A stretch of DNA of 64,000 bases from a bacterium (GTDB taxonomy: Bacteria; Patescibacteriota; Minisyncoccia; Phycocordibacterales; CAIZLB01): the NCBI GenBank assembly GCA_027490575.1, contig JAIXXV010000032.1:13211-77210 (forward strand), in the 5' to 3' direction. The position numbers and the translations under genes are program-made. The first letter of the stretch is position 1. Each line of letters begins with the position of its first letter. This document shows, one piece after another, positions 192-63,764 of this stretch. The notes under the pieces were generated by a model. That model saw only the letters and a list, made by a program, of their open reading frames with translations. It did no database searches and was not told where the DNA came from.

Positions 192-292
192 GCCGACTAT
201 TTTACATTAGTTTTGAAAATGGTGCTAGTTGATGCGTATTTACGCATTCTAGATAAACATACTCAAACTGTAAATCAACTGTACATCAACTG

Positions 293-322
293 TACATCCC
301 GCCATTTTTATGTATAATACTG
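293..322 (+). promoter_or_regulatory. Putative sigma70-type promoter for rpsA (TGTACA -35-like, extended TGTATAAT -10)
   Basis: TGTACA, a 16-nt spacer, then TGTATAAT lie about 90 nt upstream of the rpsA ATG. A TGTACA tandem repeat and the 16-bp perfect palindrome ATGCGTATTTACGCAT (232-247) sit just upstream. Confidence 0.35.
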
Positions 323-12249: not shown

Positions 12250-12383
12250 AGAGACAACGGAAGAGCGCCTGAGAAATCTGAGTAATAGAACGAGATTCTA
12301 GGACTGTGACCACTGTACCTGATAGCAAAGGTATGGTGGTTTTTTATTTGTAAATTATTAGCACCACCCACCTTTTGCACCCA

Positions 12384-12458
12384 ATTCTTAATCCTTAATT
12401 CTTAATTTGCCGGTTCTGTTAATTCTGCGGGCAATTGTCAATTGCTAATTACTAATTA
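12384..12458. repeat. Heptamer-periodic tandem repeat (ATTAGTA/ATTAGCA type), immediately after the nhaP stop
   Basis: cttaatc cttaatt cttaatt ... tgctaat tactaat tactaat shows 7-nt periodicity. Confidence 0.6.
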
Positions 12459-13832
12459 CTAATTGCTCACCTCCAACTTCCTCGCAACCCATTTAGTCAA
12501 AGGCGGTTGTATCACCAGAGTCATAATTATCACCCACATACCTATTGAGATAAGCATTTCAGGGTTACCAATATCGTATTTTGTCAAAAGACCACTGTAT
12601 GCAACTTGCACAAGAAGTACTGCTGGGATAACGCCAGTCTCTCGGACCCATGACATGAAGAGAAGCTCGCGAGTGTTAAGATCAATCTTCTTTGAAAAGA
12701 AACCGAGTGATAGAAATACTGAGGCAGGACGCACGATGAACATAAAGACAAGTCCGGCGAGTATTCCAAACCAAGCGTATTGTAGTAGCATTTGCACATT
12801 GACCAATGCTCCTAGGAGTATAAAGATACTTGGCTTTGCAATCCCCTCCACCAGCTGATTGAAAAATGTTTCTGTCTTGTGCACTTTTTCGTTCAATACA
12901 ACTAGAAGCCCTGCGATGAATGATGCTAAGTAACCACTTCCGCCAAACAGTACCGCAAATGCATATGCCATAATAGGGATAGCGATGAAGAAACCGATGT
13001 CGGCGTGGCACTCCGCACGCATTACCCTTTGTCTAACAAAAAATCGGATTGCAAAGAATCCGATAATACCAACTATTGACCCTACTACTAGCTCTTTTGA
13101 TAGGAAAATCATTGATTCCATAGAGACTAGTGCGCTAATACCTTGTGACATGTGCGTAAAAGCCCCTGCTCTTTCTACATACGTGATAAATGCCAATGTG
13201 ACCAAAGTACCAACCACGTCCGTCAATGCACTTTCTGAAACCAAGATGTCTTTGATACGGTCTTTCTTGAGCTTAAGCTCTTTGAACACAGGGATGATGG
13301 CTGCTGGATCAGTCGATGCAAGTATTGCCCCCAAAAGTAGTGCTAGCGACACGGACATTGTCATACCTGTCACTGTGCCGAGGACCGATAGACCTTGTGC
13401 CATAAAGAGAGTAGATGCCACAAGTCCGATGAAAGATAGTAGTACGGTAGGTAAAACTATTTTTCTAAATGATGAAAACGATATCTCCAAGCCTCCACCA
13501 AAAAGTATATATACCGCTGATATAGTAACTATCATGTTTAGAGCTGCGCTGTTTTCTATAAGTGGTTCCAACAAGTTGTGCATACTTAAACCTATAAACA
13601 AGGCAACTAGAAACGATGGAAATATTGTCCCCCTAGAGAGCGAGTGACAGATGGTACCCAGAAGAAACATTCCTCCTATCAAAAACAGTGGGGTTATACC
13701 CCCTACATGATCCACAGGAATCATTTCCGAATACTGTACAAACAATGCATTGAATATTGCAAAAACCGTAACACTGGTCAAAAGTATAAATGATGATGAA
13801 TGTCTCTTAAGCTTGCTTAGTTTGGCTATCAT
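12459..13832 (-). CDS. Na+/H+ (cation:proton) antiporter, CPA1/NhaP family
   Basis: About 12 TM helices and a typical CPA1 core (ILFGGGLE...ILASTDPAAIIPV). Confidence 0.8.
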   Translation of the reverse strand: MIAKLSKLKRHSSSFILLTSVTVFAIFNALFVQYSEMIPVDHVGGITPLFLIGGMFLLGTICHSLSRGTIFPSFLVALFIGLSMHNLLEPLIENSAALNMIVTISAVYILFGGGLEISFSSFRKIVLPTVLLSFIGLVASTLFMAQGLSVLGTVTGMTMSVSLALLLGAILASTDPAAIIPVFKELKLKKDRIKDILVSESALTDVVGTLVTLAFITYVERAGAFTHMSQGISALVSMESMIFLSKELVVGSIVGIIGFFAIRFFVRQRVMRAECHADIGFFIAIPIMAYAFAVLFGGSGYLASFIAGLLVVLNEKVHKTETFFNQLVEGIAKPSIFILLGALVNVQMLLQYAWFGILAGLVFMFIVRPASVFLSLGFFSKKIDLNTRELLFMSWVRETGVIPAVLLVQVAYSGLLTKYDIGNPEMLISIGMWVIIMTLVIQPPLTKWVARKLEVSN

Positions 13833-18978: not shown

Positions 18979-19509
18979 CTAAACCAAACTCCCCCACCTC
19001 TCCACATGACACGTATACCCACCTGGATTCTTCTGTAGGTAGTCTTGGTGATAATCCTCAGCTGACCAAAACTTTTTAAATGGTTCTAGTGTAGTGACGA
19101 CTGGATCTTTCCAAAGACCACTTTCATTTACAATCTTTATCATTTTTTCAGCATCTTGTTTTTCTTCTTCATCTTGATAGAAAATTGCGGATCTGTATGA
19201 AGAACCGATATCATTTCCCTGACGATTGACCGTAGTTGGATTATGAATTCTGAAGAAATAATCAAGTATTTTTAAATAACTCGTAACTGCTGGGTCGTAT
19301 GTTATTTCCATTGCCTCAGCGTGCGATTCTGCAGAATCGTGTCGCGCAATGTCCATTGAAGCGCGACCGTGACGCTCGTATGTAGGATTATCATTTTGTC
19401 CACCACTATAACCTACCTCAGAATCAATCACACCTTCTTGCTTTCTAAATAGCTCTTCCATTCCCCAGAAACATCCACCTGCAATATATGCTTTTTTATA
19501 GTTGTTCAT
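18979..19509 (-). CDS. msrA: Peptide methionine sulfoxide reductase MsrA
   Basis: [15 protein letters not shown] matches the MsrA active site GCFWG. Confidence 0.9.
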
Positions 19510-19542
19510 AATTACTAATTGTTAACTACCAATTGATAATTG
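19510..19542. repeat. Heptamer-periodic repeat filling the msrB-stop to msrA-start gap exactly
   Basis: taattac taattgt taactac caattga taattgc. Confidence 0.5.
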
Positions 19543-26560: not shown

Positions 26561-27333
26561 GCACACTAAATAATCTAGCATCGACACCGGTTGAGAGTCT
26601 GATAAGTACTCCTAGTATTTTTAGCCTGGAAGTTTTCGGTATTGCACTTATAGGAGGACTCCTACCCGCACTGGTATGGCTTTGGTTCTGGATGCATGAA
26701 AGTCATGACCACCATGAGCCAAAAAGCGTGCTTTGGAGTGTATTCATACTTGGCATGGCCAGTGTTTTTTTAGTACTACCAATACAAGCACTTTTGTCTA
26801 GGTATATGGACTTACCAATGGTGCCCGATAACTCATTCAGCATTATACTTTGGGCTGGTATTGAAGAAATTATAAAATACTCAGTTGCATTTGCTGCAGC
26901 ACTTAGATTTAAACCTGATGTATTTGATGAGCCTATAGACGCATTTGTCTATTTGATGACGGCGGCACTTGGCTTTGCTGCTATGGAAAATATACTTTTC
27001 TTGATTGGGCCACTACTACAAGGCGAGACAATCCTGACTATCATGACAGGTAATATGCGCTTTATGGGTGCCAACTTATTGCATGTTGCTTCATCAGGTG
27101 CACTGTCTATATTTATAGCCTATGGATATTACAAATCAAAAACTGCTCAACTTGGATACTTGATATCAGGACTTGCTGCGGCTACTCTATTGCATGCATT
27201 GTTTAATTTTCTTATAATACTATTAACAGAAATACAAAAGGAAATGATCTTTGTTGCATTCTCATACGTTTGGGTCACTCTGATCATTCTGATTCTGGCA
27301 CTTGAAAAGGTGAAAAAGATAAAACAATTTTAG
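26548..27333 (+). CDS. PrsW-like intramembrane protease family protein
   Basis: Multi-TM protein carrying GIEEIIKYS, GFAAMENILF and a LHVASSG...GYY region, resembling the PrsW EExxK / FxxxE / H motifs. Overlaps the valS stop by 13 nt. Confidence 0.5.
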   Translation: MAFLSTLNNLASTPVESLISTPSIFSLEVFGIALIGGLLPALVWLWFWMHESHDHHEPKSVLWSVFILGMASVFLVLPIQALLSRYMDLPMVPDNSFSIILWAGIEEIIKYSVAFAAALRFKPDVFDEPIDAFVYLMTAALGFAAMENILFLIGPLLQGETILTIMTGNMRFMGANLLHVASSGALSIFIAYGYYKSKTAQLGYLISGLAAATLLHALFNFLIILLTEIQKEMIFVAFSYVWVTLIILILALEKVKKIKQF

Positions 27334-27392
27334 TCAGTTAGCAGGTATCAGATGACAGATATCAGTTGTCAGATAGCAGGTATCAGTTAGGG
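27331..27392 (+). repeat. Heptamer-periodic (NNTANCAG)n repeat immediately after the prsW-like stop
   Basis: tagtcag ttagcag gtatcag atgacag atatcag ttgtcag atagcag gtatcag. Confidence 0.65.
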
Positions 27393-32160: not shown

Positions 32161-34539
32161 TTATTTAGCAACCGCCACCGCCTCATCAAAAGCTATAGAC
32201 AACAACTTAGAGTATCCCTCACCTCCCATCGTCACTCCGTATATAACACCAGCACGTGACATTGTCTCTCTATTGTGAGTTATAAGTATAAGCTGTGAAT
32301 GTTTAGACAAAGCCTCAATCATATCTCCATACTTTCTAGAGTTAGCCTCGTCGAGCGCTGCGTCTGTTTCATCTAGTATTACAAATGGTGGTGGATTTAC
32401 CTGTGACATTGCAAAGAGTAGTGCAATAGATGTTAGCGCTCGTTCACCTCCTGAGAGCATTGTAAGTCCCTTTATGCGTTTATGTGGCAAAGAAACATTG
32501 ATCTCAATACCTTCTTCGGCCGGTTCGTCACCATCTAGCTCTTCAGCAAGAGCAACTGACAAGTCACCACTGTCATCCTCCAGGTCACCCTTCTTTTTCT
32601 TTCGCTTTATTTCTTTTATGAGTTTAAGCTCGGCTGTACCACCTCCAAACATTAGTCCAAAAAACTTTCCAAACTCTTTATTGATTTTAGAAATACCATC
32701 CTTGAAAAGTTCACTGAGTTTTTGATTTAACTCATCTATCAGAAGTTTCAATGATTCTGAAGAAGTTATCAAATCTTGTAGCTCTTTCGCCAAGAAAATA
32801 TCCCTTTCCTCCGCATCTTTGTATTCTCGAACTATATCGTCGCCTCCACCGCCACCCATTTCCTCAAGTCTGATCTTTGATTTTTCCACAGCACGTCTTC
32901 TATCCACTTGGGCATGTCTATCTTCGACAACAGAGAAGTCAACTTCGGCGTTTTCATAATCCACAGCGTCTCTACCAACAAGCATGTGCGCCTCTTGTAT
33001 TTCACTTTTAAATTCTTCCTCCTCAACTCGAAGTCTTTCTTCTTTGGCCTTTACGGTCTCTATATGAGAATGTAACTCATTTTGCTTGGACATTATCACA
33101 AGTACAGCCTTTTCACTTTCAACATTCTTATCACGTTCTTTGTCTATATCCACTTTTATCTGTGTATATCTTTCTGATTGCTTTAATTCTTCTTCAGAAA
33201 ATGTTCTGAGTTTTTCCTCAAGAGTTTTCATTTCCTCGGATATGCGCTTTATCTCAGCTTCCTCTGTCTCAGTGCTGTTTTGCGGCTTCTCAACGTGATC
33301 TGATTCTTTGTGATAATTTACAAAACTACTAATACGCTCATGAATATCTTGGATAGATTGTTTTACGTAAGCCAATCTTTGTTCTGGAGATGCATTTGCA
33401 TGATCACCAATGCCGTCTATGGCTTCCAGAGCAACAGTTGCTTTGACGTCTATATCTTTTTGAATGAGCTCCACATCTTTCAAGTAGACTTGCTTAGTAC
33501 TTTGCACATCAATGTGGTTTTCTGACTCCTTTATCTTTTTATCTATAACTCTTTTTAGATATGAAATCTCACCTTCTAGTCGCCCTATCTCCCTGGTGCA
33601 AGAGTCTTTCTTGGCTCTAGTATCTCGCATCTCTTGCTCAAGTGACAAGAGTCCAGACATACTACTGCTTTGCCCTAGGTTGGCCTTTGCTTCATCCAGT
33701 ATAGACTTGTGGTGAACTAGCTCTTGGTGCAACTTTTCTAGCTCTTCTTGCGGAGCTTTCTTTTCATTTGACAGTCTAGCTTTCTCCATTTTTATATAAT
33801 GATTTTCACGAGCAAAATACTCTTTGTACATACCAACCAACTCTTGGCGCAAAACCACAGCCTTTTCAATCTTCTCCACCTGCTTCTTCAAAAATTTTAT
33901 ATGTGGTGCGATCTCACGCCTAAGTGACTCAATCTCTTTGATGTGATTACCCGTTTTCTCTAGCTTCTTTTCACTTTCTTGTTTTTTGTATTGATACACC
34001 TTTAGACCTAGTGCATCCTCTATCATCTCTCGCCTATCTTTTGGTTGAGCTGACAAAAGTCTATCAGCTTCACCTTGCGAAATGATATGGTGACCAGACG
34101 AGCCTATATTGGCATAAGCCAAAAGCTCCACGACATCTTTTAGTCGCACAAGCGTGCCGTTTATAAAATACTCATTAACACCATCTCTATGGACCACACG
34201 CTCTATAGAAATCTCATCGAAGTCCATGTTGAACATCCGGTTCGTATTATCGAAAACAACTTTCACTGACGCCCTGTTTGCACGCGCACTGTCCTTACCT
34301 CCGTTGAAGATAAGATCCTCGCCTTTTTTCCCTCTCATAGACTTGAGTGATTGCTCACCAAGCACAAAACGAAAAGACTCCGCCACATTTGACTTACCCG
34401 AGCCGTTTGGACCAACAATAGATGTTATAGGAGAAGTGAAGGTCAAAGATCCCTTTTTTGAAAATGATTTGAATCCGTTTATTTCTAGGGATTTTAGACG
34501 TGAGACGAAGGACATGGTTTTACAGTTATCAGTTAGCAA
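32161..34539 (-). CDS. smc: Short SMC-family chromosome segregation ATPase (probable true start at Met 34516, MSFVSRLKSLEINGFKSF)
   Basis: N-terminal Walker A GPNGSGKSN, long coiled coils, and a C-terminal signature LSGGERALTSIALLFAM with Walker B FVILDETDAALD. The rnc-smc gene order is as in Firmicutes. The ORF-track start is an in-frame TTG. Confidence 0.75.
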   Translation of the reverse strand: MLTDNCKTMSFVSRLKSLEINGFKSFSKKGSLTFTSPITSIVGPNGSGKSNVAESFRFVLGEQSLKSMRGKKGEDLIFNGGKDSARANRASVKVVFDNTNRMFNMDFDEISIERVVHRDGVNEYFINGTLVRLKDVVELLAYANIGSSGHHIISQGEADRLLSAQPKDRREMIEDALGLKVYQYKKQESEKKLEKTGNHIKEIESLRREIAPHIKFLKKQVEKIEKAVVLRQELVGMYKEYFARENHYIKMEKARLSNEKKAPQEELEKLHQELVHHKSILDEAKANLGQSSSMSGLLSLEQEMRDTRAKKDSCTREIGRLEGEISYLKRVIDKKIKESENHIDVQSTKQVYLKDVELIQKDIDVKATVALEAIDGIGDHANASPEQRLAYVKQSIQDIHERISSFVNYHKESDHVEKPQNSTETEEAEIKRISEEMKTLEEKLRTFSEEELKQSERYTQIKVDIDKERDKNVESEKAVLVIMSKQNELHSHIETVKAKEERLRVEEEEFKSEIQEAHMLVGRDAVDYENAEVDFSVVEDRHAQVDRRRAVEKSKIRLEEMGGGGGDDIVREYKDAEERDIFLAKELQDLITSSESLKLLIDELNQKLSELFKDGISKINKEFGKFFGLMFGGGTAELKLIKEIKRKKKKGDLEDDSGDLSVALAEELDGDEPAEEGIEINVSLPHKRIKGLTMLSGGERALTSIALLFAMSQVNPPPFVILDETDAALDEANSRKYGDMIEALSKHSQLILITHNRETMSRAGVIYGVTMGGEGYSKLLSIAFDEAVAVAK

Positions 34540-34560
34540 TTAACAGTTAAAGAATTAAGA
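34521..34560. repeat. Heptamer-periodic repeat immediately upstream of smc
   Basis: cagttat cagttag caattaa cagttaa. Confidence 0.5.
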
Positions 34561-35395: not shown

Positions 35396-35438
35396 GCCAA
35401 CTGTTAACTGCTATCTGATATCTGTCATCTGACACCTG
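35396..35438 (-). repeat. Heptamer-periodic (NNTANCAG)n repeat between the nusB-nudix stop and the rnc start
   Basis: On the minus strand: gtgtcag atgacag atatcag atagcag ttaacag. Confidence 0.6.
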
Positions 35439-36362
35439 TTAAGCTACCACGTTCTGTTTTTTAAGCAATATCTGTACCGCCTTCGTAACTATTGGCAAAA
35501 TGTCATTATAAAAATTGAGCGTTAGTAGATCTTTTGCATTAAACCACCTTGCATCTGTTAGTCCTCCACTGGTTCCAAGTGTAAGCGGTATAAAGTCGGA
35601 CTTTGCCAGGTAGTAACAAACTTGCTTTCGAATCTTGCCATCTTCTGGATGAGATGCAATGTACTCATTGTTAGCCAACTCTTCCTCTATCTCAATATCT
35701 ATACCCATCTCCTCCTTAATCTCACGCATGATGCCATCTTTCATATCTTCGTCACCTTCTAATTTACCTTTTGATAGAGTCCAGTGCCCAAAAACATCAT
35801 GAACTAGAGCGAACTGCATCTCACCATCGTGCATGGCATATACCACAGCACCTCCTAGTTTTTGTATTGGCATTTCTTCATAAGGAACTTCCTTTTTCTC
35901 CTTTTTTTGCTTTTTTGTAGAAACCTCCTCCTTTCCTGGCTCGCCCATCTCTTTGTAGACAGCACCGAGTACTCCGTTTACGAACTTGCCGGATGTTTCC
36001 CCTCCGAAAGACTTCGCCAGCTCAATAGCCTCGTTGATGGCCACTTTAGCTGGTACCTCCTTCCTATCGCCAAAAATTAGCTCAAAAAGGCCTATTCTGA
36101 GCACATTTCGATCAACTATCGCAATCTTGGGTATTGGCCACTCAGGAGCTGCTTTTTCAATGATTAGGTCTATTTCAGGGTTCTTTTTAACCACACCATC
36201 TACAATGTTTTTAATAAACGAAAAATCGCCCATACCAGGAGCGAATTCTTCAACATTTCTTTGAACAATTTCACCAACAACAGCAGAGTCTGAAATACCT
36301 CGAAAGTCTCTTTCGAAAAGTGATTGTAGTGCTATTGATCGTGAAAGGTGCCTATTTGCCAT
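35439..36362 (-). CDS. nusB: NusB (transcription antitermination) and NUDIX hydrolase fusion protein
   Basis: N-terminal ~140 aa is NusB-like (SRSIALQSLFERDF...AINEAIELAK). C-terminal ~150 aa carries a Nudix box (GKLEGDEDMKDGIMREIKEEMG). Confidence 0.7.
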   Translation of the reverse strand: MANRHLSRSIALQSLFERDFRGISDSAVVGEIVQRNVEEFAPGMGDFSFIKNIVDGVVKKNPEIDLIIEKAAPEWPIPKIAIVDRNVLRIGLFELIFGDRKEVPAKVAINEAIELAKSFGGETSGKFVNGVLGAVYKEMGEPGKEEVSTKKQKKEKKEVPYEEMPIQKLGGAVVYAMHDGEMQFALVHDVFGHWTLSKGKLEGDEDMKDGIMREIKEEMGIDIEIEEELANNEYIASHPEDGKIRKQVCYYLAKSDFIPLTLGTSGGLTDARWFNAKDLLTLNFYNDILPIVTKAVQILLKKQNVVA

Positions 36363-44817: not shown

Positions 44818-46161
44818 TTAACCGATAATCCCCTTTTTCAACATGTTTTGTCTTTTGAATTCAGCAATTCTATTGTCGATACTTGGTTTGTTGTATTTGT
44901 AGAATGCATAACCAGCGATCGAACTCCACAGTATCATTGCCAATGTTATAACTATCATCTTTGGACCAAAGTCTATACCTGTTGCAGGTACTTGGTTTAG
45001 GAATACTCCAGATACAGGTACACCAGTTACAGGTGTTTGATCTCTGATAACTGTTACGTTAGAAGCTACAGTGTTTGCAAAGATGGTTGTAGCACAAGTA
45101 GCGCTTACACTTTGACCATTTACAAATGCAGTAACACTCGCTGTCTTGTATCCAGGTATGTTGTAAGATCTAGTTAACTGAGCAGAATTTCCGAAAAGTC
45201 CATCAGTTCCTGACCAGTTGTATGAAGTTGCACCCCAGATATTTCCATTTACATACATAGTCCATGTAACGTTTTGGTTTATGAATGCAGTTGCAGGTGT
45301 AGCTACACAGTAAGCTCCGATAGGATTTACAGGTGGTACATAAGTGTCTTGTATAAGAACATTACATGATCTAGTGATTGATTGATTACCAGATGTGATA
45401 GTTACATAAGCTGTCTTGTATCCAAGTGATGCAAATCTTCCCGTAAATGATTGACCTGATGCACTTATACCATCACTTCCTGACCATACGTATGTGTAGT
45501 TTCCAGAACCTCCAGAAGCAGTTGCCATGAAAGTTAGGTTTTGATTAACAAATGCAGTTGAAGGACTAATGATACAGTTACCATTTAGAGTAGGTTCGGA
45601 AGGAGTGTTTGTATTTGAACCACCGCCACCTAGTACAACTAGACTGATGTTGTTGTTGTTTACAGGGTTAAATGTGTTTGAGTTGTTGTTTGTTGCACTA
45701 GCTGTACTGTTGTTTGTGTTAGTGTTTGTATTTCTGTTGGTATTTGTGTTTGTATTAGTATTTGAAGTATATACATACGAAAGCTGAGGGGCAGGTGTAA
45801 ATCCAAAACCTCCTCCACCACCTACATTGTTGTAGACATATCTTTGAGCTGGGGCCGCAACGAATCCTCCACCTACACGGTTTTGAACAGGTTGTACGTA
45901 TCTTTGCGTAGGGGCTGAAAATACAGGGTTTGAATATGTTGTATTCAATCTATATCCTGAAGAAGGACTTGAGTATACAGGGTTAGAGTAAGTTGTATTC
46001 AATCTATACCCAGAACCCGTTGTTCCAACACCTGACAAGCCAGAGCTTGTTTTAGATGCAAAAGTAACTCCTGGAAACAGCGTCACAGAAGAGACCAAAA
46101 TGGCTAGAAATATGAATTTCCCCGCTTTTTGTAGACTTTTTATATTTGTAATTGTTTTCAT
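44818..46161 (-). CDS. Secreted surface protein with an NT-repeat low-complexity linker, two Ig-like repeats and the C-terminal module PVSGVFLNQVPATG + TM + charged tail (candidate sortase substrate)
   Basis: Signal peptide (FIFLAILVSSVTLFPGVTFA), a TNTNTNTNRNTNTNTN linker, and two ~90-aa repeats (YTYVWSGSDGISASGQ... and SYNWSGTDGLFGNSAQ...). The C-terminal motif is shared with ORF 62616-63764. Confidence 0.6.
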   Translation of the reverse strand: MKTITNIKSLQKAGKFIFLAILVSSVTLFPGVTFASKTSSGLSGVGTTGSGYRLNTTYSNPVYSSPSSGYRLNTTYSNPVFSAPTQRYVQPVQNRVGGGFVAAPAQRYVYNNVGGGGGFGFTPAPQLSYVYTSNTNTNTNTNRNTNTNTNNSTASATNNNSNTFNPVNNNNISLVVLGGGGSNTNTPSEPTLNGNCIISPSTAFVNQNLTFMATASGGSGNYTYVWSGSDGISASGQSFTGRFASLGYKTAYVTITSGNQSITRSCNVLIQDTYVPPVNPIGAYCVATPATAFINQNVTWTMYVNGNIWGATSYNWSGTDGLFGNSAQLTRSYNIPGYKTASVTAFVNGQSVSATCATTIFANTVASNVTVIRDQTPVTGVPVSGVFLNQVPATGIDFGPKMIVITLAMILWSSIAGYAFYKYNKPSIDNRIAEFKRQNMLKKGIIG

Positions 46162-56119: not shown

Positions 56120-56920
56120 CTAGGCCTTAGTCGCCTCAATACACATAAACAATGGGATCTCCTTTCTTGCCAAATCTTCTATCTTTGCCTTTGGGCCACT
56201 TTGACTCTTTTTATGTGATGACCATTCTTCAAGCTTTGTTATTGAAAAGCCGTTCTTTGTAAGCCATTTTACAAAAACCTGTAGAGGTCTGTGATATGAC
56301 ACTGTGTATTGTTTTAAGTCTTTCTTGTGAGAAGGCACGCTTGGATTCATATCTATCTTTATCATTCCTTCACTTAGATATCTGTATACTACCCTGCCTT
56401 GTTTGCCGATATTTGGATCATCGCCCACTCTTTTGCTTTCATTGAAATACCAATCAGAACTTTGGGGTATGCGAAACGATGGATGGTTTAGAACCAAAAC
56501 AAGTCTTCCACCTTTAGCTAATACACGTGAAGTTTCTTTAAAAACAATATCAAGCTCTTGGATATTTTGAGCAGCTAGTATGCAAATTGCCACATCCATT
56601 GAGCCTGTTGCGATCTTTGATAGATCATGAGCTGGAGAAACTAAAAATCTAGCGTTCTTGTGATTCATCTTTATGGACTGCTCTTTTGCCATAGATACCA
56701 ACTCAGATGATATATCTAACCCTACCAGACTTTTAACCTCAGGTGCGAATTGCATACTAAAAAAACCTTGTCCACAGGCAATATCTAACAATGACTGATT
56801 CTTGTTCAGAGAAAGTATCCTCTTTAGATTCGGAAGGATTACCTTGTTTTGATAAGAGTCCTCATCTTTTAAATACTGATCGTACCAATTCGCTACACCA
56901 CCCCATGAAGTTTTTGACAT
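56120..56920 (-). CDS. Class I SAM-dependent methyltransferase
   Basis: SAM-binding motif I LLDIACGQGFF and VGLDIS. Confidence 0.75.
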   Translation of the reverse strand: MSKTSWGGVANWYDQYLKDEDSYQNKVILPNLKRILSLNKNQSLLDIACGQGFFSMQFAPEVKSLVGLDISSELVSMAKEQSIKMNHKNARFLVSPAHDLSKIATGSMDVAICILAAQNIQELDIVFKETSRVLAKGGRLVLVLNHPSFRIPQSSDWYFNESKRVGDDPNIGKQGRVVYRYLSEGMIKIDMNPSVPSHKKDLKQYTVSYHRPLQVFVKWLTKNGFSITKLEEWSSHKKSQSGPKAKIEDLARKEIPLFMCIEATKA

Positions 56921-56968
56921 TAATTCTTAATTGCTATCTGATAACTGTTATCTGCTACCTGTAACCGT
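56921..56968 (-). repeat. Heptamer-periodic (NNTANCAG)n repeat filling the intergenic gap exactly
   Basis: On the minus strand: acag gtagcag ataacag ttatcag atagcaa ttaagaa, abutting the methyltransferase ATG. Confidence 0.6.
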
Positions 56969-56972
56969 TTTG

Positions 56973-57422
56973 TTATTTTACTGCGTTGACTGCTTTGTTT
57001 GCTACTTTCTTGGCAACCTTAGTAGCCTTTTTTACTGTCTTCTTGGCAACTTTAGAACCTACAGAAAGTTCTTTTTTAATATTTTTCCAGTGACTCTTAA
57101 GCTCATTTGCAATAGACTGAACCTCAGTTGTATCAATGTTTTTAACATTTTGATAACGAGTCATAACGGCATCTACAGCTTTGTTGTACAAGTCTTCATT
57201 CACCTCCTTTAGAGATTCTACTTTTTGAAGAACCTCGCCCTTAGCTTTTAGGGCCCATCCTTTTACTTGTTTTATCTTCTTTTGAGCTGGTTTGTTGCCG
57301 TGTATAAAGTAAGCACCTGCAATAGCTGCAGCGGCAAGTCCCCCTAGTATTGCTAGACCGTGACCAGAACCATTATCTGAAGCTTTTGCTGTCTTGTTTG
57401 TTTTTGAATTATTTTTTGGCAT
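56973..57422 (-). CDS. Hypothetical membrane-anchored coiled-coil protein with a Lys/Ala-rich tail
   Basis: A TM segment near the N-terminus (LAILGGLAAAAIAGAYFI) and a C-terminal KKTVKKATKVAKKVANK tail. Confidence 0.4.
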   Translation of the reverse strand: MPKNNSKTNKTAKASDNGSGHGLAILGGLAAAAIAGAYFIHGNKPAQKKIKQVKGWALKAKGEVLQKVESLKEVNEDLYNKAVDAVMTRYQNVKNIDTTEVQSIANELKSHWKNIKKELSVGSKVAKKTVKKATKVAKKVANKAVNAVK

Positions 57423-60080: not shown

Positions 60081-60656
60081 CTATAATTTACGTATAACCG
60101 CTTTAACTACAGCAGCAATTTTGAGGTCATACTCAGGGTATATATTTTTAAATTTTTTATTTGCCGGTTCAAGGTATATCTGACCTTTTTTATCTCTCCT
60201 AAAATACTTCATCGTCCAACCTCCGTCGACTTCTGCGATTACAATATCTCCCACCTTTGCATTTTCAGTTCTCTCAACAAGAACAAGGTCACCTTCAGCT
60301 ATGTGAGCTTCTATCATTGATTCCCCTTTCACTTCGAGCATATACGTTGAGCCTTTTGTACCTTCCAAAAGGAGCTCGTCTATAGAAGTAGAATCAAGTA
60401 CATCTTCTTCTGCCACTGTTGGCATACCAGCTTCTACTAGTCCAAGTAAAGGAATCTCATTTGAAAGCTTTTGGGGTGTAAGCTTGCCCCTCGAGTCCTT
60501 GTTGAATACACCTTCCTCTACAAGTTTGTTAATGAGTTTATAGACAGCATTTTTGGACTTGAATCCAAGCATATCCATAATCTCATTATACCCAGGCACA
60601 CGCCTATTGGTCTTATAGAAATTAAGTATTTTTTGTTTGTAATCTTGGTAAGTCAT
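60081..60656 (-). CDS. lexA: LexA repressor (S24 peptidase)
   Basis: N-terminal wHTH, the Ala-Gly cleavage region (VEAGMP) and Ser/Lys catalytic motifs (VKGESM...). Confidence 0.85.
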   Translation of the reverse strand: MTYQDYKQKILNFYKTNRRVPGYNEIMDMLGFKSKNAVYKLINKLVEEGVFNKDSRGKLTPQKLSNEIPLLGLVEAGMPTVAEEDVLDSTSIDELLLEGTKGSTYMLEVKGESMIEAHIAEGDLVLVERTENAKVGDIVIAEVDGGWTMKYFRRDKKGQIYLEPANKKFKNIYPEYDLKIAAVVKAVIRKL

Positions 60657-60661
60657 TTTTT

Positions 60662-60755
60662 GCAGTTATCAGGTGGTGGTTAGCAGATATCAGGTATCAG
60701 ATGACAGATATCAGGTATCAGGTATCAGGTATCAGATGACAGATATCAGGTATCC
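60662..60755 (+). repeat. Longest heptamer-periodic (NNTANCAG)n tandem array (about 13 units), directly upstream of lexA
   Basis: cagttat caggtgg tggttag cag atatcag gtatcag atgacag atatcag gtatcag gtatcag gtatcag atgacag atatcag gtatcc. Confidence 0.7.
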
Positions 60756-61100
60756 ATTAAATGCTAATGCTTAGATGCTGGAGTCTATTAAAACATGAAT
60801 GAGGCGAGTGAGAATGTTCTAGCTAATGAAGCCTCACTTTCAAGTCTTCTCAATTGTAGCATGAGGTTCTTATGCTTTCGAGATTCCTTTTCATATGATT
60901 CTCCTTTTATGATTTTAAAATCTATTCTTTTGTTGATTGAGTTAAGCTCTCTTCTTATTGCAAACATAATTGTCATTTTTCTCATGGTATTTATTTTGTT
61001 ATTTTTTAATGTTCTTTGTCTTTCCTTGTATGTTTATATAATAGGTGAACTATAGTTCACTGTCAAACATTTAGTATAAAAATACTGTGGATAAGTCTTA

Positions 61101-61140
61101 AACAGATAACAGTTGGTAATTATCAGGTGACAGTTAGCAG
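61101..61140 (+). repeat. Heptamer-periodic repeat abutting the helicase stop codon
   Basis: aacagataacag ttggtaa ttatcag gtgacag ttagcag. Confidence 0.55.
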
Positions 61141-62610
61141 TTAGGTGCTTATCAAAAAATCAACAACTCTCTGGTCTACTTGTATATCTCTTCTCGTTAT
61201 AGGTTTGGTGAGCTGAATCCCCTCGAGACTTCTAACGCGACTTAGCGCCACATAAGCTTGTCCATGTGCAAAAGTCCCCTTTCCAAAATCTATGATTGCA
61301 TTATCGAACGTTTTACCTTGACTCTTGTGTATAGTAACTGCCCAAGCAAGTTTTACCGGTATTTGTATGTACTTTCCAACAACCTCAGAAGAAACTCTGT
61401 TTTGCTTTGAGTCAAATTCATATCTAACTGATTCCCAACTTTCACTTTCAACTTCCTCGGTCTTGCCATTACGAAGTTGTACATTGATGGAAGTTGAGTT
61501 TAGCTTTTTTACAATACCAAGATCTCCATTGACCCATCTGCCCATAGGATCATTTCTAAGCATCATGACTTGTGCGCCAACTTTCAGCACCAGAGCTTCA
61601 GGCGCTGGTGTAGTTTTTCTATCAAAAGCTCCTTGTACATGACCTTTGTATGTTTTAGCGGCACCATATATTTCAGTTAGCTTTTTGTTATTGATTACCT
61701 CAGCTGATGCATTGGTAGAAACTAGATATATGGCATCACTTGGCATTTTTTTCTTTTTATTTAAACTGCTTTTGCCTGCATTTTTTGAATGAGCGCCAGA
61801 CTTAGTTTTTCCACCAATCCCCTCACTACTATCATTGTCCATATCAATCACTAGCTCATAATCACCTCCGAATTGATAGTCAGACTCTGATTGAAATCCA
61901 CCTGAATCTGACACGGAGTCTTGATTGAAATTTTGTGAAAAATCTAGACAGCACACTGAATTGATTTTATAAAGATCATTTTCATCCATACGACCTGTAC
62001 GAATCCTATCAAGGATAGAGACGAACTCAGTATCACTTTGTCTATAAACTTCTGTAAGCTCAGCTATCTGGAAATTGCCCTTGGGATATGACTTTGAATC
62101 AAAAAAGTATGGGCTCTGATAATGATCTATGAAGACGTACTGTTCATGTGGAGCAACTACCGGAGGCAACTGAAACATGTCTCCAATAGCCACCATTTGT
62201 ACACCACCAAAAAACTCACCAGGCTTTGGACCGTTGAGTCTAAGGAATCTCTCAACACAATCAAAAAGATCTGCACGGACCATAGATATTTCATCTATTA
62301 CAAGTGTGTCTAGCTTTTTGTAAAGCTTAGATAAGGTCTCATCTGAGATAATGCTTATATCTCTATCTATCACACCTATCTTAAACTTAAAGAAGCTGTG
62401 TATGGTCTGACCTTTGATATTTAGTGCTGCTATGCCTGTGGGTGCAACTACGGCTATGTTTTTCTTGGTGGTATCTCGAAAATGTTGCAGCAAAGTAGAT
62501 TTACCAGTACCAGCTCTACCAGTAATGAATATGTTTTGGCTAGAATTTTCAAGCAAATCTAATATATCTTTTGACTCGTCAGATAATTTCATATCTGAAT
62601 AATACTCCAA
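61141..62610 (-). CDS. Pif1/RecD-like SF1 DNA helicase with an internal low-complexity insertion
   Basis: Walker A GRAGTGKST, then VVAPTGIAALNIKGQTIHSFF...DEISMV, then the C-terminal VTIHKSQGKTFD and AYVALSRVRSLEGI motifs typical of the Pif1 family. A S/D/G-rich insert lies at ~residues 225-290. Confidence 0.75.
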   Translation of the reverse strand: MEYYSDMKLSDESKDILDLLENSSQNIFITGRAGTGKSTLLQHFRDTTKKNIAVVAPTGIAALNIKGQTIHSFFKFKIGVIDRDISIISDETLSKLYKKLDTLVIDEISMVRADLFDCVERFLRLNGPKPGEFFGGVQMVAIGDMFQLPPVVAPHEQYVFIDHYQSPYFFDSKSYPKGNFQIAELTEVYRQSDTEFVSILDRIRTGRMDENDLYKINSVCCLDFSQNFNQDSVSDSGGFQSESDYQFGGDYELVIDMDNDSSEGIGGKTKSGAHSKNAGKSSLNKKKKMPSDAIYLVSTNASAEVINNKKLTEIYGAAKTYKGHVQGAFDRKTTPAPEALVLKVGAQVMMLRNDPMGRWVNGDLGIVKKLNSTSINVQLRNGKTEEVESESWESVRYEFDSKQNRVSSEVVGKYIQIPVKLAWAVTIHKSQGKTFDNAIIDFGKGTFAHGQAYVALSRVRSLEGIQLTKPITRRDIQVDQRVVDFLIST

Positions 62611-62615
62611 TCAAT

Positions 62616-63764
62616 CTAACCCTGCATCTTCTTTTTTGTCTTTTGTTGTTGCATTAGTTTAAATGCAGTAGCTATGTCTGAAACAGAGGCTTGTGCATTG
62701 GCACTAGATGATACAGTTGACGCATCAGACGCATTTGAGAAAGACACGAGTCTCTGATTTCCAAATGAGTAATATTTATGGAATACAAGTGCACCCAGTA
62801 AACTACTTAGCATTAAGCCCGTAAGCAAGATTGCGCTTTTTACGCCAGGAGTTACTCCTGTTGCAGGAACTTGGTTTAGGAATACACCCGAGACCGGCTG
62901 TCCAGAAACACCAGAAGTGTACTGGTACGTAGGTTGAACATAAGTATAAGTAGTCGGTTGTGTATATACAGGTTGTGTATATGTTTGTTGGTAGTTGTAG
63001 TCGTAAGGATAATAGTATTGATTTGGATTTTGATATTGCCAATTCCAAGTTTGATTTTGCCAAGTATTGTTCCAACTACTATTATTCCAGCCATTATTCC
63101 ATGTATTGTTCCAATTATTATTCCAGTTGTTATTTGTTCCATAACCAACTTGTACAAATAAACTTGCACAAGAAGTATTATTAAATGATGAGCAAATTGT
63201 GTAAGACATTGTACCTAATTGATTACCTGTAACTGTTATCTGGCTACCACTTATATAAGCACTAGCAATACTTGAGTTATTGTTATTTGAAATAAAATAT
63301 CCTCCGCCAGTACCTGAGATATTTACAGATTGAGTTTGCCCCACATTCAGAGTAAGACTTGTCTGACTTAAGCTTATGGTTTGATTATTCCATGTTCCAC
63401 CTGTCACATTGACCTGAAGCGTTGCACAAGGAGCCATAGACGCTTGCGAACATATAGTTAGACTTGATGTTCCTTGAGATAGACCTTGAACTTGCACTAG
63501 TCCACTTGATGATCCTGCACTTACCACGGTACTGTTTGAGTTTGCTGATACGTAGTAGTTACCTGATCCACCTGACACATTTACAGTAACTGTTTGACCT
63601 GAGTTTATATTTATAAATGACTGACTAAGATATATTGGTCCGTAGTAAGGGGTTGACTGTGCACTAGCAAAACCACCTGGCACCAAAAAAGATAGTGCAG
63701 ATAGGCATACTGAAACTGCGAAAATGGTGCTTTTTATAGCTATTTTTTTAGATATATTTGTCAT
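62616..63764 (-). CDS. Secreted surface protein with two Ig-like repeats, an N/W-rich low-complexity region and the C-terminal module PVSGVFLNQVPATG + TM + long tail
   Basis: Signal peptide, repeats (NYYVSANSNSTVVSAGSSS...; GYFISNNNNSSIASAYISGSQ...), an NNWNN repeat tract, and a C-terminal motif identical to that of ORF 44818-46161. Confidence 0.55.
   Translation of the reverse strand: MTNISKKIAIKSTIFAVSVCLSALSFLVPGGFASAQSTPYYGPIYLSQSFININSGQTVTVNVSGGSGNYYVSANSNSTVVSAGSSSGLVQVQGLSQGTSSLTICSQASMAPCATLQVNVTGGTWNNQTISLSQTSLTLNVGQTQSVNISGTGGGYFISNNNNSSIASAYISGSQITVTGNQLGTMSYTICSSFNNTSCASLFVQVGYGTNNNWNNNWNNTWNNGWNNSSWNNTWQNQTWNWQYQNPNQYYYPYDYNYQQTYTQPVYTQPTTYTYVQPTYQYTSGVSGQPVSGVFLNQVPATGVTPGVKSAILLTGLMLSSLLGALVFHKYYSFGNQRLVSFSNASDASTVSSSANAQASVSDIATAFKLMQQQKTKKKMQG

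What the first reader, a model, noticed from the sequence alone, without database searches (positions are those of the whole stretch)
60662..60755. Genome-specific family of 7-nt-periodic tandem repeats, (NNTANCAG)n, placed exactly between stop and start codons
At least eight intergenic gaps are occupied by short tandem arrays with strict 7-nt periodicity, whose units end in CAG or the AT-rich variant ATTAGTA/CAATTA. The loci are 12384-12458, 19510-19542, 27331-27392, 34521-34560, 35396-35438, 56921-56968, 60662-60755 and 61101-61140. Several arrays fill the spacer exactly: msrB stop to msrA start, the prsW-like stop, the nusB-nudix stop to rnc, the gap ending at the methyltransferase ATG, and the Pif1 stop. 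The 60662-60755 array is the longest (about 13 units) and lies directly upstream of lexA. The arrays have no hairpin potential and no obvious SD, and they occur in both orientations relative to the flanking genes. They are not CRISPR (no spacers) and not typical REP or MITE elements. They could be protein-binding arrays, slipped-strand variable-number loci, or nucleoid-organisation sites. I am not aware of this being described.
Basis: seen in the sequence. Interest (0 to 1): 0.65.

Follow-up and report, generated by a model that had tools for sequence, protein, structure and literature searches.

The report
Variable 7-base repeat arrays between genes
Eight gaps between genes in this tiny-genome (Patescibacteria) bacterium hold tandem arrays of a 7-base unit (CAG-D-T-R-N); these change copy number between close relatives and belong to a repeat type already described in cyanobacteria and sulfur bacteria, of unknown function.

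Summary
All eight loci hold head-to-tail heptamer arrays with the unit C-A-[G/A]-[not C]-T-[A/G]-N. They are far beyond chance and lie only in intergenic DNA.

The window comes from a Paceibacteria (Patescibacteria/CPR) genome. The arrays are not genome-specific. Sister species (about 83-86% nucleotide identity in lexA and rnc) carry arrays in the same spacers and the same orientation, but with different unit numbers (5, 6, 8-9 or 13 upstream of lexA) and different unit variants. A contig 96% identical to the window differs by exactly one 7-nt unit. More distant relatives (about 546 kb examined) have none.

The focal array is not in a promoter. It lies inside an operon, between a conserved 65-aa ORF and lexA, downstream of an SOS-box promoter.

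This kind of element is already described: TAACTGA direct repeats (reverse complement CAGTTAT) in Beggiatoaceae, Cyanobacteria and Bacteroidetes; cyanobacterial STRR; and intergenic heptamer simple repeats in Xanthomonas and Nostoc.

Best reading: slippage-driven, hypervariable heptamer satellites. They are tolerated in transcribed spacers because this organism rarely uses Shine-Dalgarno sites. Function is unproven. It is a new member (new phylum, new unit set) of a known kind.

The parts
60663..60755 (+). Focal array, about 13 heptamer units (CAGTTAT CAGGTGG TGGTTAG CAGATAT CAGGTAT CAGATGA ...). CAG is on the + strand, so the minus-strand lexA mRNA would carry the CUG strand. It starts 32 nt after the small-ORF stop and ends 6 nt before the lexA ATG.
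   Evidence: Orthologous arrays of 5, 6 and 8-9 units are present in L184, L182 and L183/L185.
61103..61144 (+). Array of 6 units overlapping the Pif1 stop codon (TAA inside CCTAACTG). It ends 37 nt before the -35 box of the SOS-box promoter.
   Evidence: L183/L185 have 2 units and L182 has 3 units here.
56920..56968 (-). Array of about 6 units (CAGGTAG CAGATAA CAGTTAT CAGATAG CAATTAA GAATTAA). It nearly fills the 52-nt gap from the stop of ORF 56973-57422 to the methyltransferase ATG.
35397..35438 (-). Array of 6 units that begins immediately after the NusB-NUDIX stop codon. A further 48 nt follow before the rnc start.
   Evidence: L186 and L187 have CAGAATT AAGAATT AAGAATT at the same place.
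34523..34550 (+). Array of 4 units. CTG is on the sense (minus) strand and reads ...CTAACTGATAACTG. It ends 7 nt before the smc ATG (34515).
   Evidence: L188 has 5 TAACTGA-like units just before its smc ATG.
27334..27390 (+). Array of 8 units that starts 1 nt after the PrsW stop codon and ends 57 nt upstream of the HSP20 start.
   Evidence: It is identical in L153 and L154. L164 has 7 units through an exact 7-nt indel. L188 has 9 units, and L186 has an AAGAATT-type array.
19508..19542 (-). AT-rich variant array (CAATTAT CAATTGG TAGTTAA CAATTAG TAATT). It exactly fills the 33-nt msrB stop to msrA start gap.
12384..12465 (-). Two AT-rich sub-arrays: AATTCTT x3.6 at 12383-12407 and CAATTAG TAATTAG TAATTAG CAATTGA CAATTGC at 12431-12465. 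The first unit of the second sub-array supplies the TAG stop of the K+/H+ antiporter gene.
60788..60985 (-). Context: a conserved 65-aa ORF, the first gene of the lexA operon.
61038..61066 (-). Context: promoter TTGACA-17-TATTAT with the SOS-box palindrome GTGAACTATAGTTCAC in its spacer.
60081..60656 (-). Context: lexA-like gene (S24 peptidase, 191 aa), downstream of the focal array.

Best explanation
The arrays are a clade-specific family of hypervariable heptanucleotide satellites. They are of the same kind as the cyanobacterial, Beggiatoaceae and Bacteroidetes heptamer repeats.

Shown:
- The arrays sit at fixed intergenic positions, starting at stop codons or ending a few bases before start codons, in a genus-level group of Paceibacteria.
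- They keep position and orientation between species.
- They gain and lose whole units and swap unit variants quickly.
- They are absent from more distant relatives with the same gene order.

Inferred mechanism:
- Arrays grow and shrink by replication slippage or unequal exchange in register of 7 nt or multiples of it.
- Blocks are occasionally copied between loci. Three loci share the order CAGGTRT-CAGATGA-CAGATAT.
- Cytosine-to-thymine transitions turn CAG units into CAA and TAG units, giving the AT-rich variants.
- Arrays are excluded from genes because 7 is not a multiple of 3 and the units carry stop codons in nearly every frame.
- They can fill whole spacers, including the bases just before start codons, because this organism initiates translation mostly without Shine-Dalgarno sites.
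- Seven of the eight lie between genes on the same strand, so most are probably co-transcribed with their neighbours.
- Any effect on expression is probably modest and in cis. No function is demonstrated.
For: - Periodicity and excess over chance.
- Exclusively intergenic.
- Exact 7-nt indel against a 95.8%-identical contig with near-identical flanks.
- Orthologous lexA-spacer arrays of 5, 6, 8-9 and 13 units in species with 83-85% lexA nucleotide identity, always with CTG on the sense strand.
- Orthologous arrays at the PrsW stop, the nusB-nudix stop and smc upstream in L186 and L188 (rnc about 85% nucleotide identity), with different unit variants.
- Absent from L156, L155, L122 and about 546 kb from 31 relatives.
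- A 35-nt (5-unit) duplication inside the focal array.
- Stop codons in almost every frame on both strands.
- Only 8 of 62 genes have a Shine-Dalgarno motif.
- The only strong promoter near the focal array lies upstream of the small ORF.
- Mixed arrays contain both CAG and CAA/TAA units.
- Literature precedent for the same behaviour (7-nt indels between strains, placement in operon spacers, polymerase-slippage proposal): PMC4679880, PMC4692102.
Against: - Variation is confined to positions 4, 6 and 7. A at position 2 (52 of 53 units) and T at position 5 (53 of 53) are essentially invariant. The motif GATAACTG is kept 4-7 nt before the lexA ATG in four species. Plain neutral slippage does not predict this, and it hints at a sequence constraint. 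This statistic is partly circular, because the scan used the same pattern.
- Persistence of arrays at the same spacers across species, in a streamlined genome expected to delete junk DNA, argues for some benefit or a strong mutational drive.
- Slippage alone does not explain why independent loci share one unit family.
- No transcript data are available.
Confidence: 0.6

Rival explanations
1. The arrays are cis-acting binding platforms on the mRNA or the DNA for a specific factor, such as ribosomal protein S1, a cold-shock-type protein, or a lineage-specific binder. Such a factor would tune translation initiation or mRNA fate in an organism that lacks Shine-Dalgarno sites. MacGregor proposed this for TAACTGA repeats.
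For: - Positions 1-3 and 5 of the unit are nearly invariant while positions 4, 6 and 7 vary.
- Arrays end 0-7 nt before four start codons: msrA, the methyltransferase, lexA and smc.
- GATAACTG is kept just before the lexA ATG in four species, and TAACTG-type units are kept before smc in two.
- Position and orientation are conserved across species despite sequence turnover.
- The placement matches BOGUAY, where most repeats lie just upstream of starts lacking an RBS (PMC4679880).
Against: - Orientation relative to transcription is mixed among loci: CUG sense at lexA, smc and Pif1, but CAG or CAA sense at the five other loci.
- Half of the arrays sit after stop codons, far from any start.
- The same genes in L156, L155 and L122 work without arrays.
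- Copy number is free to vary from 5 to 13 units.
- Lack of a Shine-Dalgarno site is genome-wide, so it is not specific to array genes.
- No candidate binder was identified.
Confidence: 0.2
2. The arrays act at the DNA level, as nucleoid-protein sites, flexible or curved DNA, or recombination hot spots that promote rearrangement. Their sequence matters on double-stranded DNA, so orientation would be irrelevant.
For: - Both orientations occur.
- Three units make 21 bp, or two helical turns, and TRF finds 21-nt and 35-nt higher-order periods.
- In L188 gene order changed between rnc and smc, next to an array.
- MacGregor suggested a rearrangement role for long arrays (PMC4679880).
Against: - There is no evidence of a binder.
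- The arrays are short (28-93 bp).
- None lies in a divergent promoter region, and 7 of 8 lie in co-directional spacers.
- Synteny around most arrays is conserved.
Confidence: 0.08
3. The arrays are contingency (phase-variation) switches, where a change in copy number turns the neighbouring genes on or off.
For: Copy number varies between strains and species.
Against: - The arrays are not inside ORFs and not between the -35 and -10 boxes.
- The flanking genes are housekeeping genes (lexA, smc, rnc, msrA, hsp20), not surface or virulence genes.
- The units are degenerate rather than perfect.
Confidence: 0.05
4. The arrays are a chance low-complexity feature or an assembly artefact.
For: Short-read contigs break inside the focal array, so its exact length is uncertain.
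Against: - Shuffles give about 0 hits.
- Independent assemblies from several studies contain the arrays.
Confidence: 0.01

Closest known systems
TAACTGA direct repeats of marine Beggiatoaceae, some Cyanobacteria and Bacteroidetes (MacGregor 2015, PMC4679880)
   Same: - The unit is a heptamer, and TAACTGA is the reverse complement of CAGTTAT, one of the units here.
- Arrays are split by related heptamers.
- They are almost entirely intergenic.
- Many end a few nucleotides before start codons that lack an RBS.
- Some overlap the end of the upstream ORF.
- Related strains differ by 7-nt indels.
- The phylogenetic distribution is sporadic, and close relatives lack them.
- Contigs break at the arrays.
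   Different: - No exact TAACTGA doublet occurs in the window; the best match has 1 mismatch.
- The dominant units here are CAGGTAT, CAGATAT, CAGTTAG and CAGATGA.
- Orientation is mixed, as in Microcystis and unlike BOGUAY.
- The host is a Patescibacteria genome of roughly 1 Mb.
STRR (short tandemly repeated repetitive) heptamers of heterocystous cyanobacteria
   Same: Both are dispersed tandem heptamer arrays in non-coding DNA, and both are variable enough for strain fingerprinting (PMC5088731; the Calothrix heptamers are cited in PMC4692102).
   Different: - The STRR units (CCCCAGT, TTGGTCA, CAACAGT, recalled from memory) do not occur in tandem here.
- The phylum is different.
G-rich heptameric intergenic SSRs of Xanthomonas (GGGAATC) and Nostoc (GGGGAYT) (Rehm 2015, PMC4692102)
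   Same: - Both are intergenic heptamer SSR families.
- They lie between the same genes in related species, with extensive length and sequence variation.
- Some lie in operon spacers.
- A polymerase-slippage origin has been proposed.
   Different: Those units are G-rich and can form quadruplexes. The units here are A/T-rich with a CAG core and cannot form G-quadruplexes.
Phase-variation SSRs (contingency loci) of Haemophilus, Neisseria and Moraxella
   Same: Copy number changes by slippage.
   Different: Those have 1-5 nt units, are perfect repeats, lie inside ORFs or core promoters, and are linked to surface genes. None of this holds here.

Membership tests
Intergenic heptanucleotide simple-sequence-repeat families (LSSR sense of Mrazek 2007, as summarised in PMC4679880 and PMC4692102) | Head-to-tail repeats of a 7-nt unit, longer than expected by chance | tested here: met
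Intergenic heptanucleotide simple-sequence-repeat families (LSSR sense of Mrazek 2007, as summarised in PMC4679880 and PMC4692102) | Strong bias to non-coding DNA | tested here: met
   8 of 8 arrays are intergenic at a coding fraction of 0.88
Intergenic heptanucleotide simple-sequence-repeat families (LSSR sense of Mrazek 2007, as summarised in PMC4679880 and PMC4692102) | Length polymorphism in whole units between close relatives | tested here: met
   7-nt indel; 5, 6, 8-9 and 13 units at one locus; 7, 8 and 9 units at the PrsW locus
TAACTGA direct repeats (MacGregor 2015) | Exact TAACTGA unit repeated at least twice in tandem | tested here: not met
   There are 0 exact doublets in the window and one doublet with 1 mismatch at 34522-34535. 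An exact doublet is present in sister species L188 upstream of smc.
TAACTGA direct repeats (MacGregor 2015) | Forward orientation (TAACTG on the sense strand) ending a few nt before a start codon that lacks an RBS | tested here: inconclusive
   Met for lexA and smc. Not met for the methyltransferase and msrA, which are in reverse orientation, nor for the four arrays placed after stop codons.
STRR of heterocystous cyanobacteria | STRR1-3 unit sequences in tandem, in a heterocystous cyanobacterial host | tested here: not met
   No tandem copies of these units. The host is a Paceibacteria genome.
Contingency-locus SSR | Repeat inside an ORF or between the -35 and -10 boxes, so that unit changes switch expression | tested here: not met
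CRISPR array | Repeats of 24-48 nt separated by unique spacers | tested here: not met
   The units are contiguous 7-mers with no spacers.
REP/BIME or MITE | Palindromic hairpin unit or terminal inverted repeats | tested here: not met
   Folding z-scores are -0.6 to -0.9 for most spacers. No Rfam family matches.

The most novel reading that the evidence does not exclude
The CAG-core heptamer arrays could be the cis-elements of a transferable post-transcriptional or DNA-binding system. A specific binding factor and its heptamer sites would have spread horizontally into scattered lineages (Cyanobacteria, Beggiatoaceae, Bacteroidetes, a Desulfobacteraceae-like organism, and now a Patescibacteria genus). 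In this Shine-Dalgarno-poor organism the arrays would set translation or mRNA processing at operon junctions.
Probability: 0.12. Interest if true: 0.7.

Novelty: new member of a known kind. Interest (0 to 1): 0.4.

Why it matters
Patescibacteria genomes are small and streamlined, so a dense family of hypervariable satellites is unexpected. Here it amounts to about 1 array per 8 kb, occupying 8 of roughly 57 spacers of at least 25 nt. The arrays persist at the same gene junctions across species.

The finding adds a fifth phylum to the sporadic distribution of CAG-core heptamer arrays, whose origin and function remain unsolved.

It also provides a compact comparative data set: the same spacers in several sister species, plus a 772-kb contig of one of them. 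This could be used to test slippage against selection, or to find a co-occurring binding protein.

Practically, the arrays break short-read assemblies and could serve as strain markers.

Tried and rejected
It shows only that such arrays are widespread and says nothing on origin.
- Scans of viral contigs for the window's higher-order motif found nothing, and CAGGTAT x3 found 12 unrelated contigs. There is no evidence for a phage vector.
- Contigs found by exact protein match from the same study carry identical arrays, so they give no information on variation.
- Looking up the plus-strand 86-aa ORF found nothing. That ORF is probably spurious.
- RNA folding gave no convincing structure, and Rfam gave only two tRNAs.
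- PMC177437 and PMC1895974 are not held. Statements about Mazel 1990 and Mrazek 2007 therefore rest on citing papers and on memory.
- I noted post hoc that native stop codons fall in phase with the T-R-N positions of the unit in 3 of 5 cases. I do not rely on this.
- CRISPR, REP/MITE, iteron, terminator and contingency-locus readings were considered and rejected (see the membership rows).
- The Desulfobacteraceae assignment of L163 rests on about 60% identity of one protein and is weak.

Full report
**Observation**

The focal segment 60663-60755 reads, in heptamers: CAGTTAT CAGGTGG TGGTTAG CAGATAT CAGGTAT CAGATGA CAGATAT CAGGTAT CAGGTAT CAGGTAT CAGATGA CAGATAT CAGGTAT. TRF reports period 7 with 10.1 copies. 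It also reports a 35-nt higher-order period with 2.0 copies at 97% matches.

The periodicity is specific to 7 nt:
- CAG or CTG three times in a row at period 7 occurs 15+6 times in the window, against 0-2 at any other period from 4 to 12.
- A six-unit CAG pattern with up to two mismatches gives 16 hits, against none in 100 shuffles.
Markov shuffles give 0.27 on average.

All eight arrays lie between ORFs, although 88% of the window is coding.

The AT-rich arrays (CAATTRN and TAATTRN units at 12431 and 19508) belong to the same family. They differ from CAG units only by C-to-T and G-to-A transitions. Three arrays (34523, 56920, 61103) mix both types.

**Organism and gene context**

The window is chromosomal: DnaE, GyrB, ValS, ThrS, FtsZ and RNase R are present. 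It comes from a Patescibacteria (Paceibacteria/Parcubacteria) genome. The best GyrB matches among species representatives are Paceibacterota/Taylorbacteria-type MAGs at 83-88% identity. LexA and RNase III homologues carry the same names.

One correction matters. The gene between Pif1 and lexA is a conserved 65-aa ORF on the minus strand (60985..60788), not the plus-strand ORF 60795-61055. Upstream of it lies a near-consensus promoter, TTGACA-17-TATTAT. Its spacer is the palindrome GTGAACTATAGTTCAC, a GAAC-N4-GTTC SOS box. This is the only such box in the window, and it is conserved in relatives.

The focal array therefore lies inside the small-ORF-lexA operon, 32 nt after one stop codon and 6 nt before the lexA ATG. 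The mRNA would carry the CUG strand, reading ...CCUGAUAACUGCAAAAAAUG.

**Placement**

- Six of eight arrays start within 4 nt of a stop codon.
- Four end 0-7 nt before a start codon: msrA, the methyltransferase, lexA and smc.
- The Pif1 protein aligns with its orthologues to the last residue, so that array begins at the native stop rather than truncating the gene.
- The antiporter gene ends at a TAG supplied by the first unit of its array.
- In contig L165 the last seven codons of an ORF are array-encoded.
- The arrays contain stop codons in nearly every frame on both strands.
- Seven arrays are in co-directional spacers, one is in a convergent spacer and none is in a divergent spacer. The background is 29, 14 and 14. 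This bias is only marginal.
- Shine-Dalgarno motifs are rare in the whole window (8 of 62 genes), and many starts sit just after a TATAAT-like box. 'No SD' is therefore not special to array genes. It may explain why arrays can occupy the bases in front of start codons.

**Comparative evidence**

This is the most informative part.

*Distant relatives lack arrays.*
- Thirty-one GyrB loci from species representatives (about 546 kb) contain no such arrays and almost no period-7 repeats.
- L122, L124, L125 and L155 keep the gene order Pif1 - small ORF - lexA ... methyltransferase - GyrB. Their spacers are ordinary. The small-ORF-lexA gap is 20 nt in L122 and 112 nt in L155.
- L156 (LexA 88% amino-acid identity) has no clear array either.

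*Closer relatives have arrays at the lexA locus.* Contigs encoding the identical 65-aa protein, with lexA at 83-85% nucleotide identity, all carry an array in the same spacer and the same orientation, filling it from stop to start:
- 5 units in L184 (38-nt gap);
- 6 units in L182 (45 nt);
- 8-9 units in L183 and L185 (67 nt);
- 13 units in the window (131 nt).

All four keep GATAACTG 4-7 nt before the ATG. The Pif1-stop array has 6, 3 or 2 units in the same contigs.

*Closer relatives also have arrays at other loci.* Sister species found through RNase III (93-94% amino-acid and about 85% nucleotide identity) show the same pattern:
- L188 has 9 CAG-type units after the PrsW stop.
- L188 has five TAACTGA-like units immediately before smc, even though two genes were inserted between rnc and smc.
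- L186 and L187 have AAGAATT/GAATTAA-type heptamer arrays at the PrsW and nusB-nudix stops, between conserved flanks.
- L186 and L187 have no array before smc.

*A near-identical strain differs by one unit.* A contig 95.8% identical to the window (L164) differs in the PrsW array by exactly one 7-nt unit, with near-identical flanks.

*Assembly caveat.* Short-read contigs from the window's own study end inside the focal array. Its exact copy number is therefore uncertain.

**Unit anatomy**

Among 53 units of 25 types:
- position 2 is A in 52;
- position 5 is T in all 53;
- position 1 is C in 46;
- positions 3 and 6 are purines only;
- position 4 is never C;
- position 7 is free.

This count is partly circular, because the scan used that pattern. 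However, T at position 5 also holds in all 32 units of arrays defined by the CAG criterion alone.

All four CAGATGA units are preceded by CAGGTRT and followed by CAGATAT, at three separate loci. This suggests that blocks, not single units, are shared between loci.

Predicted RNA structure of the spacers is unremarkable.

**Comparison with what is known**

[quoted passage not shown] TAACTGA is the reverse complement of CAGTTAT. The features reported there match this window:
- the repeats are almost all intergenic;
- most end a few nucleotides upstream of start codons without an RBS;
- some overlap the upstream ORF end;
- some are split by related heptamers;
- related strains differ by 7-nt indels;
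- close relatives often lack them;
- contigs break at them.

That paper also summarises Mrazek 2007: heptamers are the most abundant long simple repeats in prokaryotes, possibly because of polymerase slippage.

Rehm 2015 (PMC4692102) found heptameric SSRs over-represented in intergenic regions of Xanthomonas and Nostoc. They lie between the same genes in related species, with extensive length variation. That paper cites the three Calothrix heptanucleotides (STRR).

A preprint (10.1101/2022.06.06.494920) reports modest effects of heptamer repeats on recF and recO expression in Nostoc. The binding partner is unidentified.

I found no paper linking such repeats with Patescibacteria.

Arrays with the window's own block (CAGATGA CAGATAT) also occur in metagenome contigs of unrelated organisms with GC content of 0.44-0.61. 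One such contig has six arrays in 15 kb, and its MocR-type protein best resembles Desulfobacteraceae. General CAG-N-T heptamer arrays are common in viral contigs.

**Interpretation**

The data fit a satellite life cycle:
- arrays are seeded at a spacer;
- they expand and contract in 7-nt register or multiples (the 7-nt indel, the 35-nt duplication, the 5-13-unit series);
- unit variants turn over (CAG-type versus GAATTAA-type at orthologous sites);
- they decay by transitions;
- they are excluded from coding DNA.

Slippage does not explain three things: the near-invariance of A2 and T5, the shared unit family at all loci, and the persistence of arrays at the same junctions across species in a streamlined genome. 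These leave room for a binding-factor model on RNA or DNA, which I rate at about 0.2.

Against that model:
- orientation relative to transcription is mixed;
- copy number is free to vary;
- orthologous operons in slightly more distant relatives function without arrays.

Phase-variation, CRISPR, REP/MITE and artefact readings fail their defining features.

**Verdict**

The finding is real and well delimited, but it is not a new kind of element. It is a new member (new phylum, new unit set, unusually dense) of the known and still unexplained class of intergenic heptamer repeats. The comparative series across sister species is the most useful product of this analysis.

Noticed in passing
window 61038-61066 (-), with ORF 60985..60788 (-) and lexA 60656..60081 (-): A near-consensus promoter, TTGACA-17-TATTAT, has the palindrome GTGAACTATAGTTCAC as its spacer. 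This is a GAAC-N4-GTTC box of the Gram-positive SOS type and the only one in the window. It precedes a conserved 65-aa ORF with no Pfam match, followed by lexA. The arrangement is conserved in L122, L155 and L182-L185, so it is probably an autoregulated small-ORF-lexA operon in Paceibacteria.
   Followed up: partly
window, all gene starts: Only 8 of 62 genes have a GGAG, GAGG or AGGA motif upstream. Many have a TATAAT-like box 10-15 nt before the ATG. This suggests widespread Shine-Dalgarno-independent or leaderless translation.
   Followed up: partly
window 266-298: An 11-bp unit, AACTGTACATC, is repeated three times (95% matches) just upstream of a TATAAT-like box and gene 414-1541. It could be an operator-like site.
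   Followed up: no
window 35439-36362 (-): A NusB-NUDIX fusion protein of 307 aa. It is also present in sister species L186.
   Followed up: no
window 45711-45764 and 63079-63134: In-frame tandem repeats (periods 6/12/18 and period 12) lie inside ORFs 44818-46161 and 62616-63764. They indicate low-complexity repeat proteins.
   Followed up: no
L163 6041-12463; also L157, L159, L160-L162, L166-L168: Unrelated metagenome contigs (GC 0.44-0.61) carry many CAGATGA, CAGAGGA and CAGATGT heptamer arrays. L163 has six arrays in 15 kb, and its MocR-type protein is about 60% identical to Desulfobacteraceae proteins. This may be another array-rich lineage.
   Followed up: partly
L186 16908-16937 and 9906-9925: The sister species uses a different heptamer (AAGAATT/GAATTAA) at the orthologous PrsW and nusB-nudix stops. 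The PrsW-side array is bracketed by a short inverted repeat (CCGAC...GTCGG).
   Followed up: partly
L156 around 165-235: The closest array-lacking relative has two adjacent CAG heptamers (CAGAATT CAGTTGT) and a GATAATTGAT motif in the orthologous small-ORF-lexA spacer. This could be a proto-array, a decayed array, or chance.
   Followed up: no
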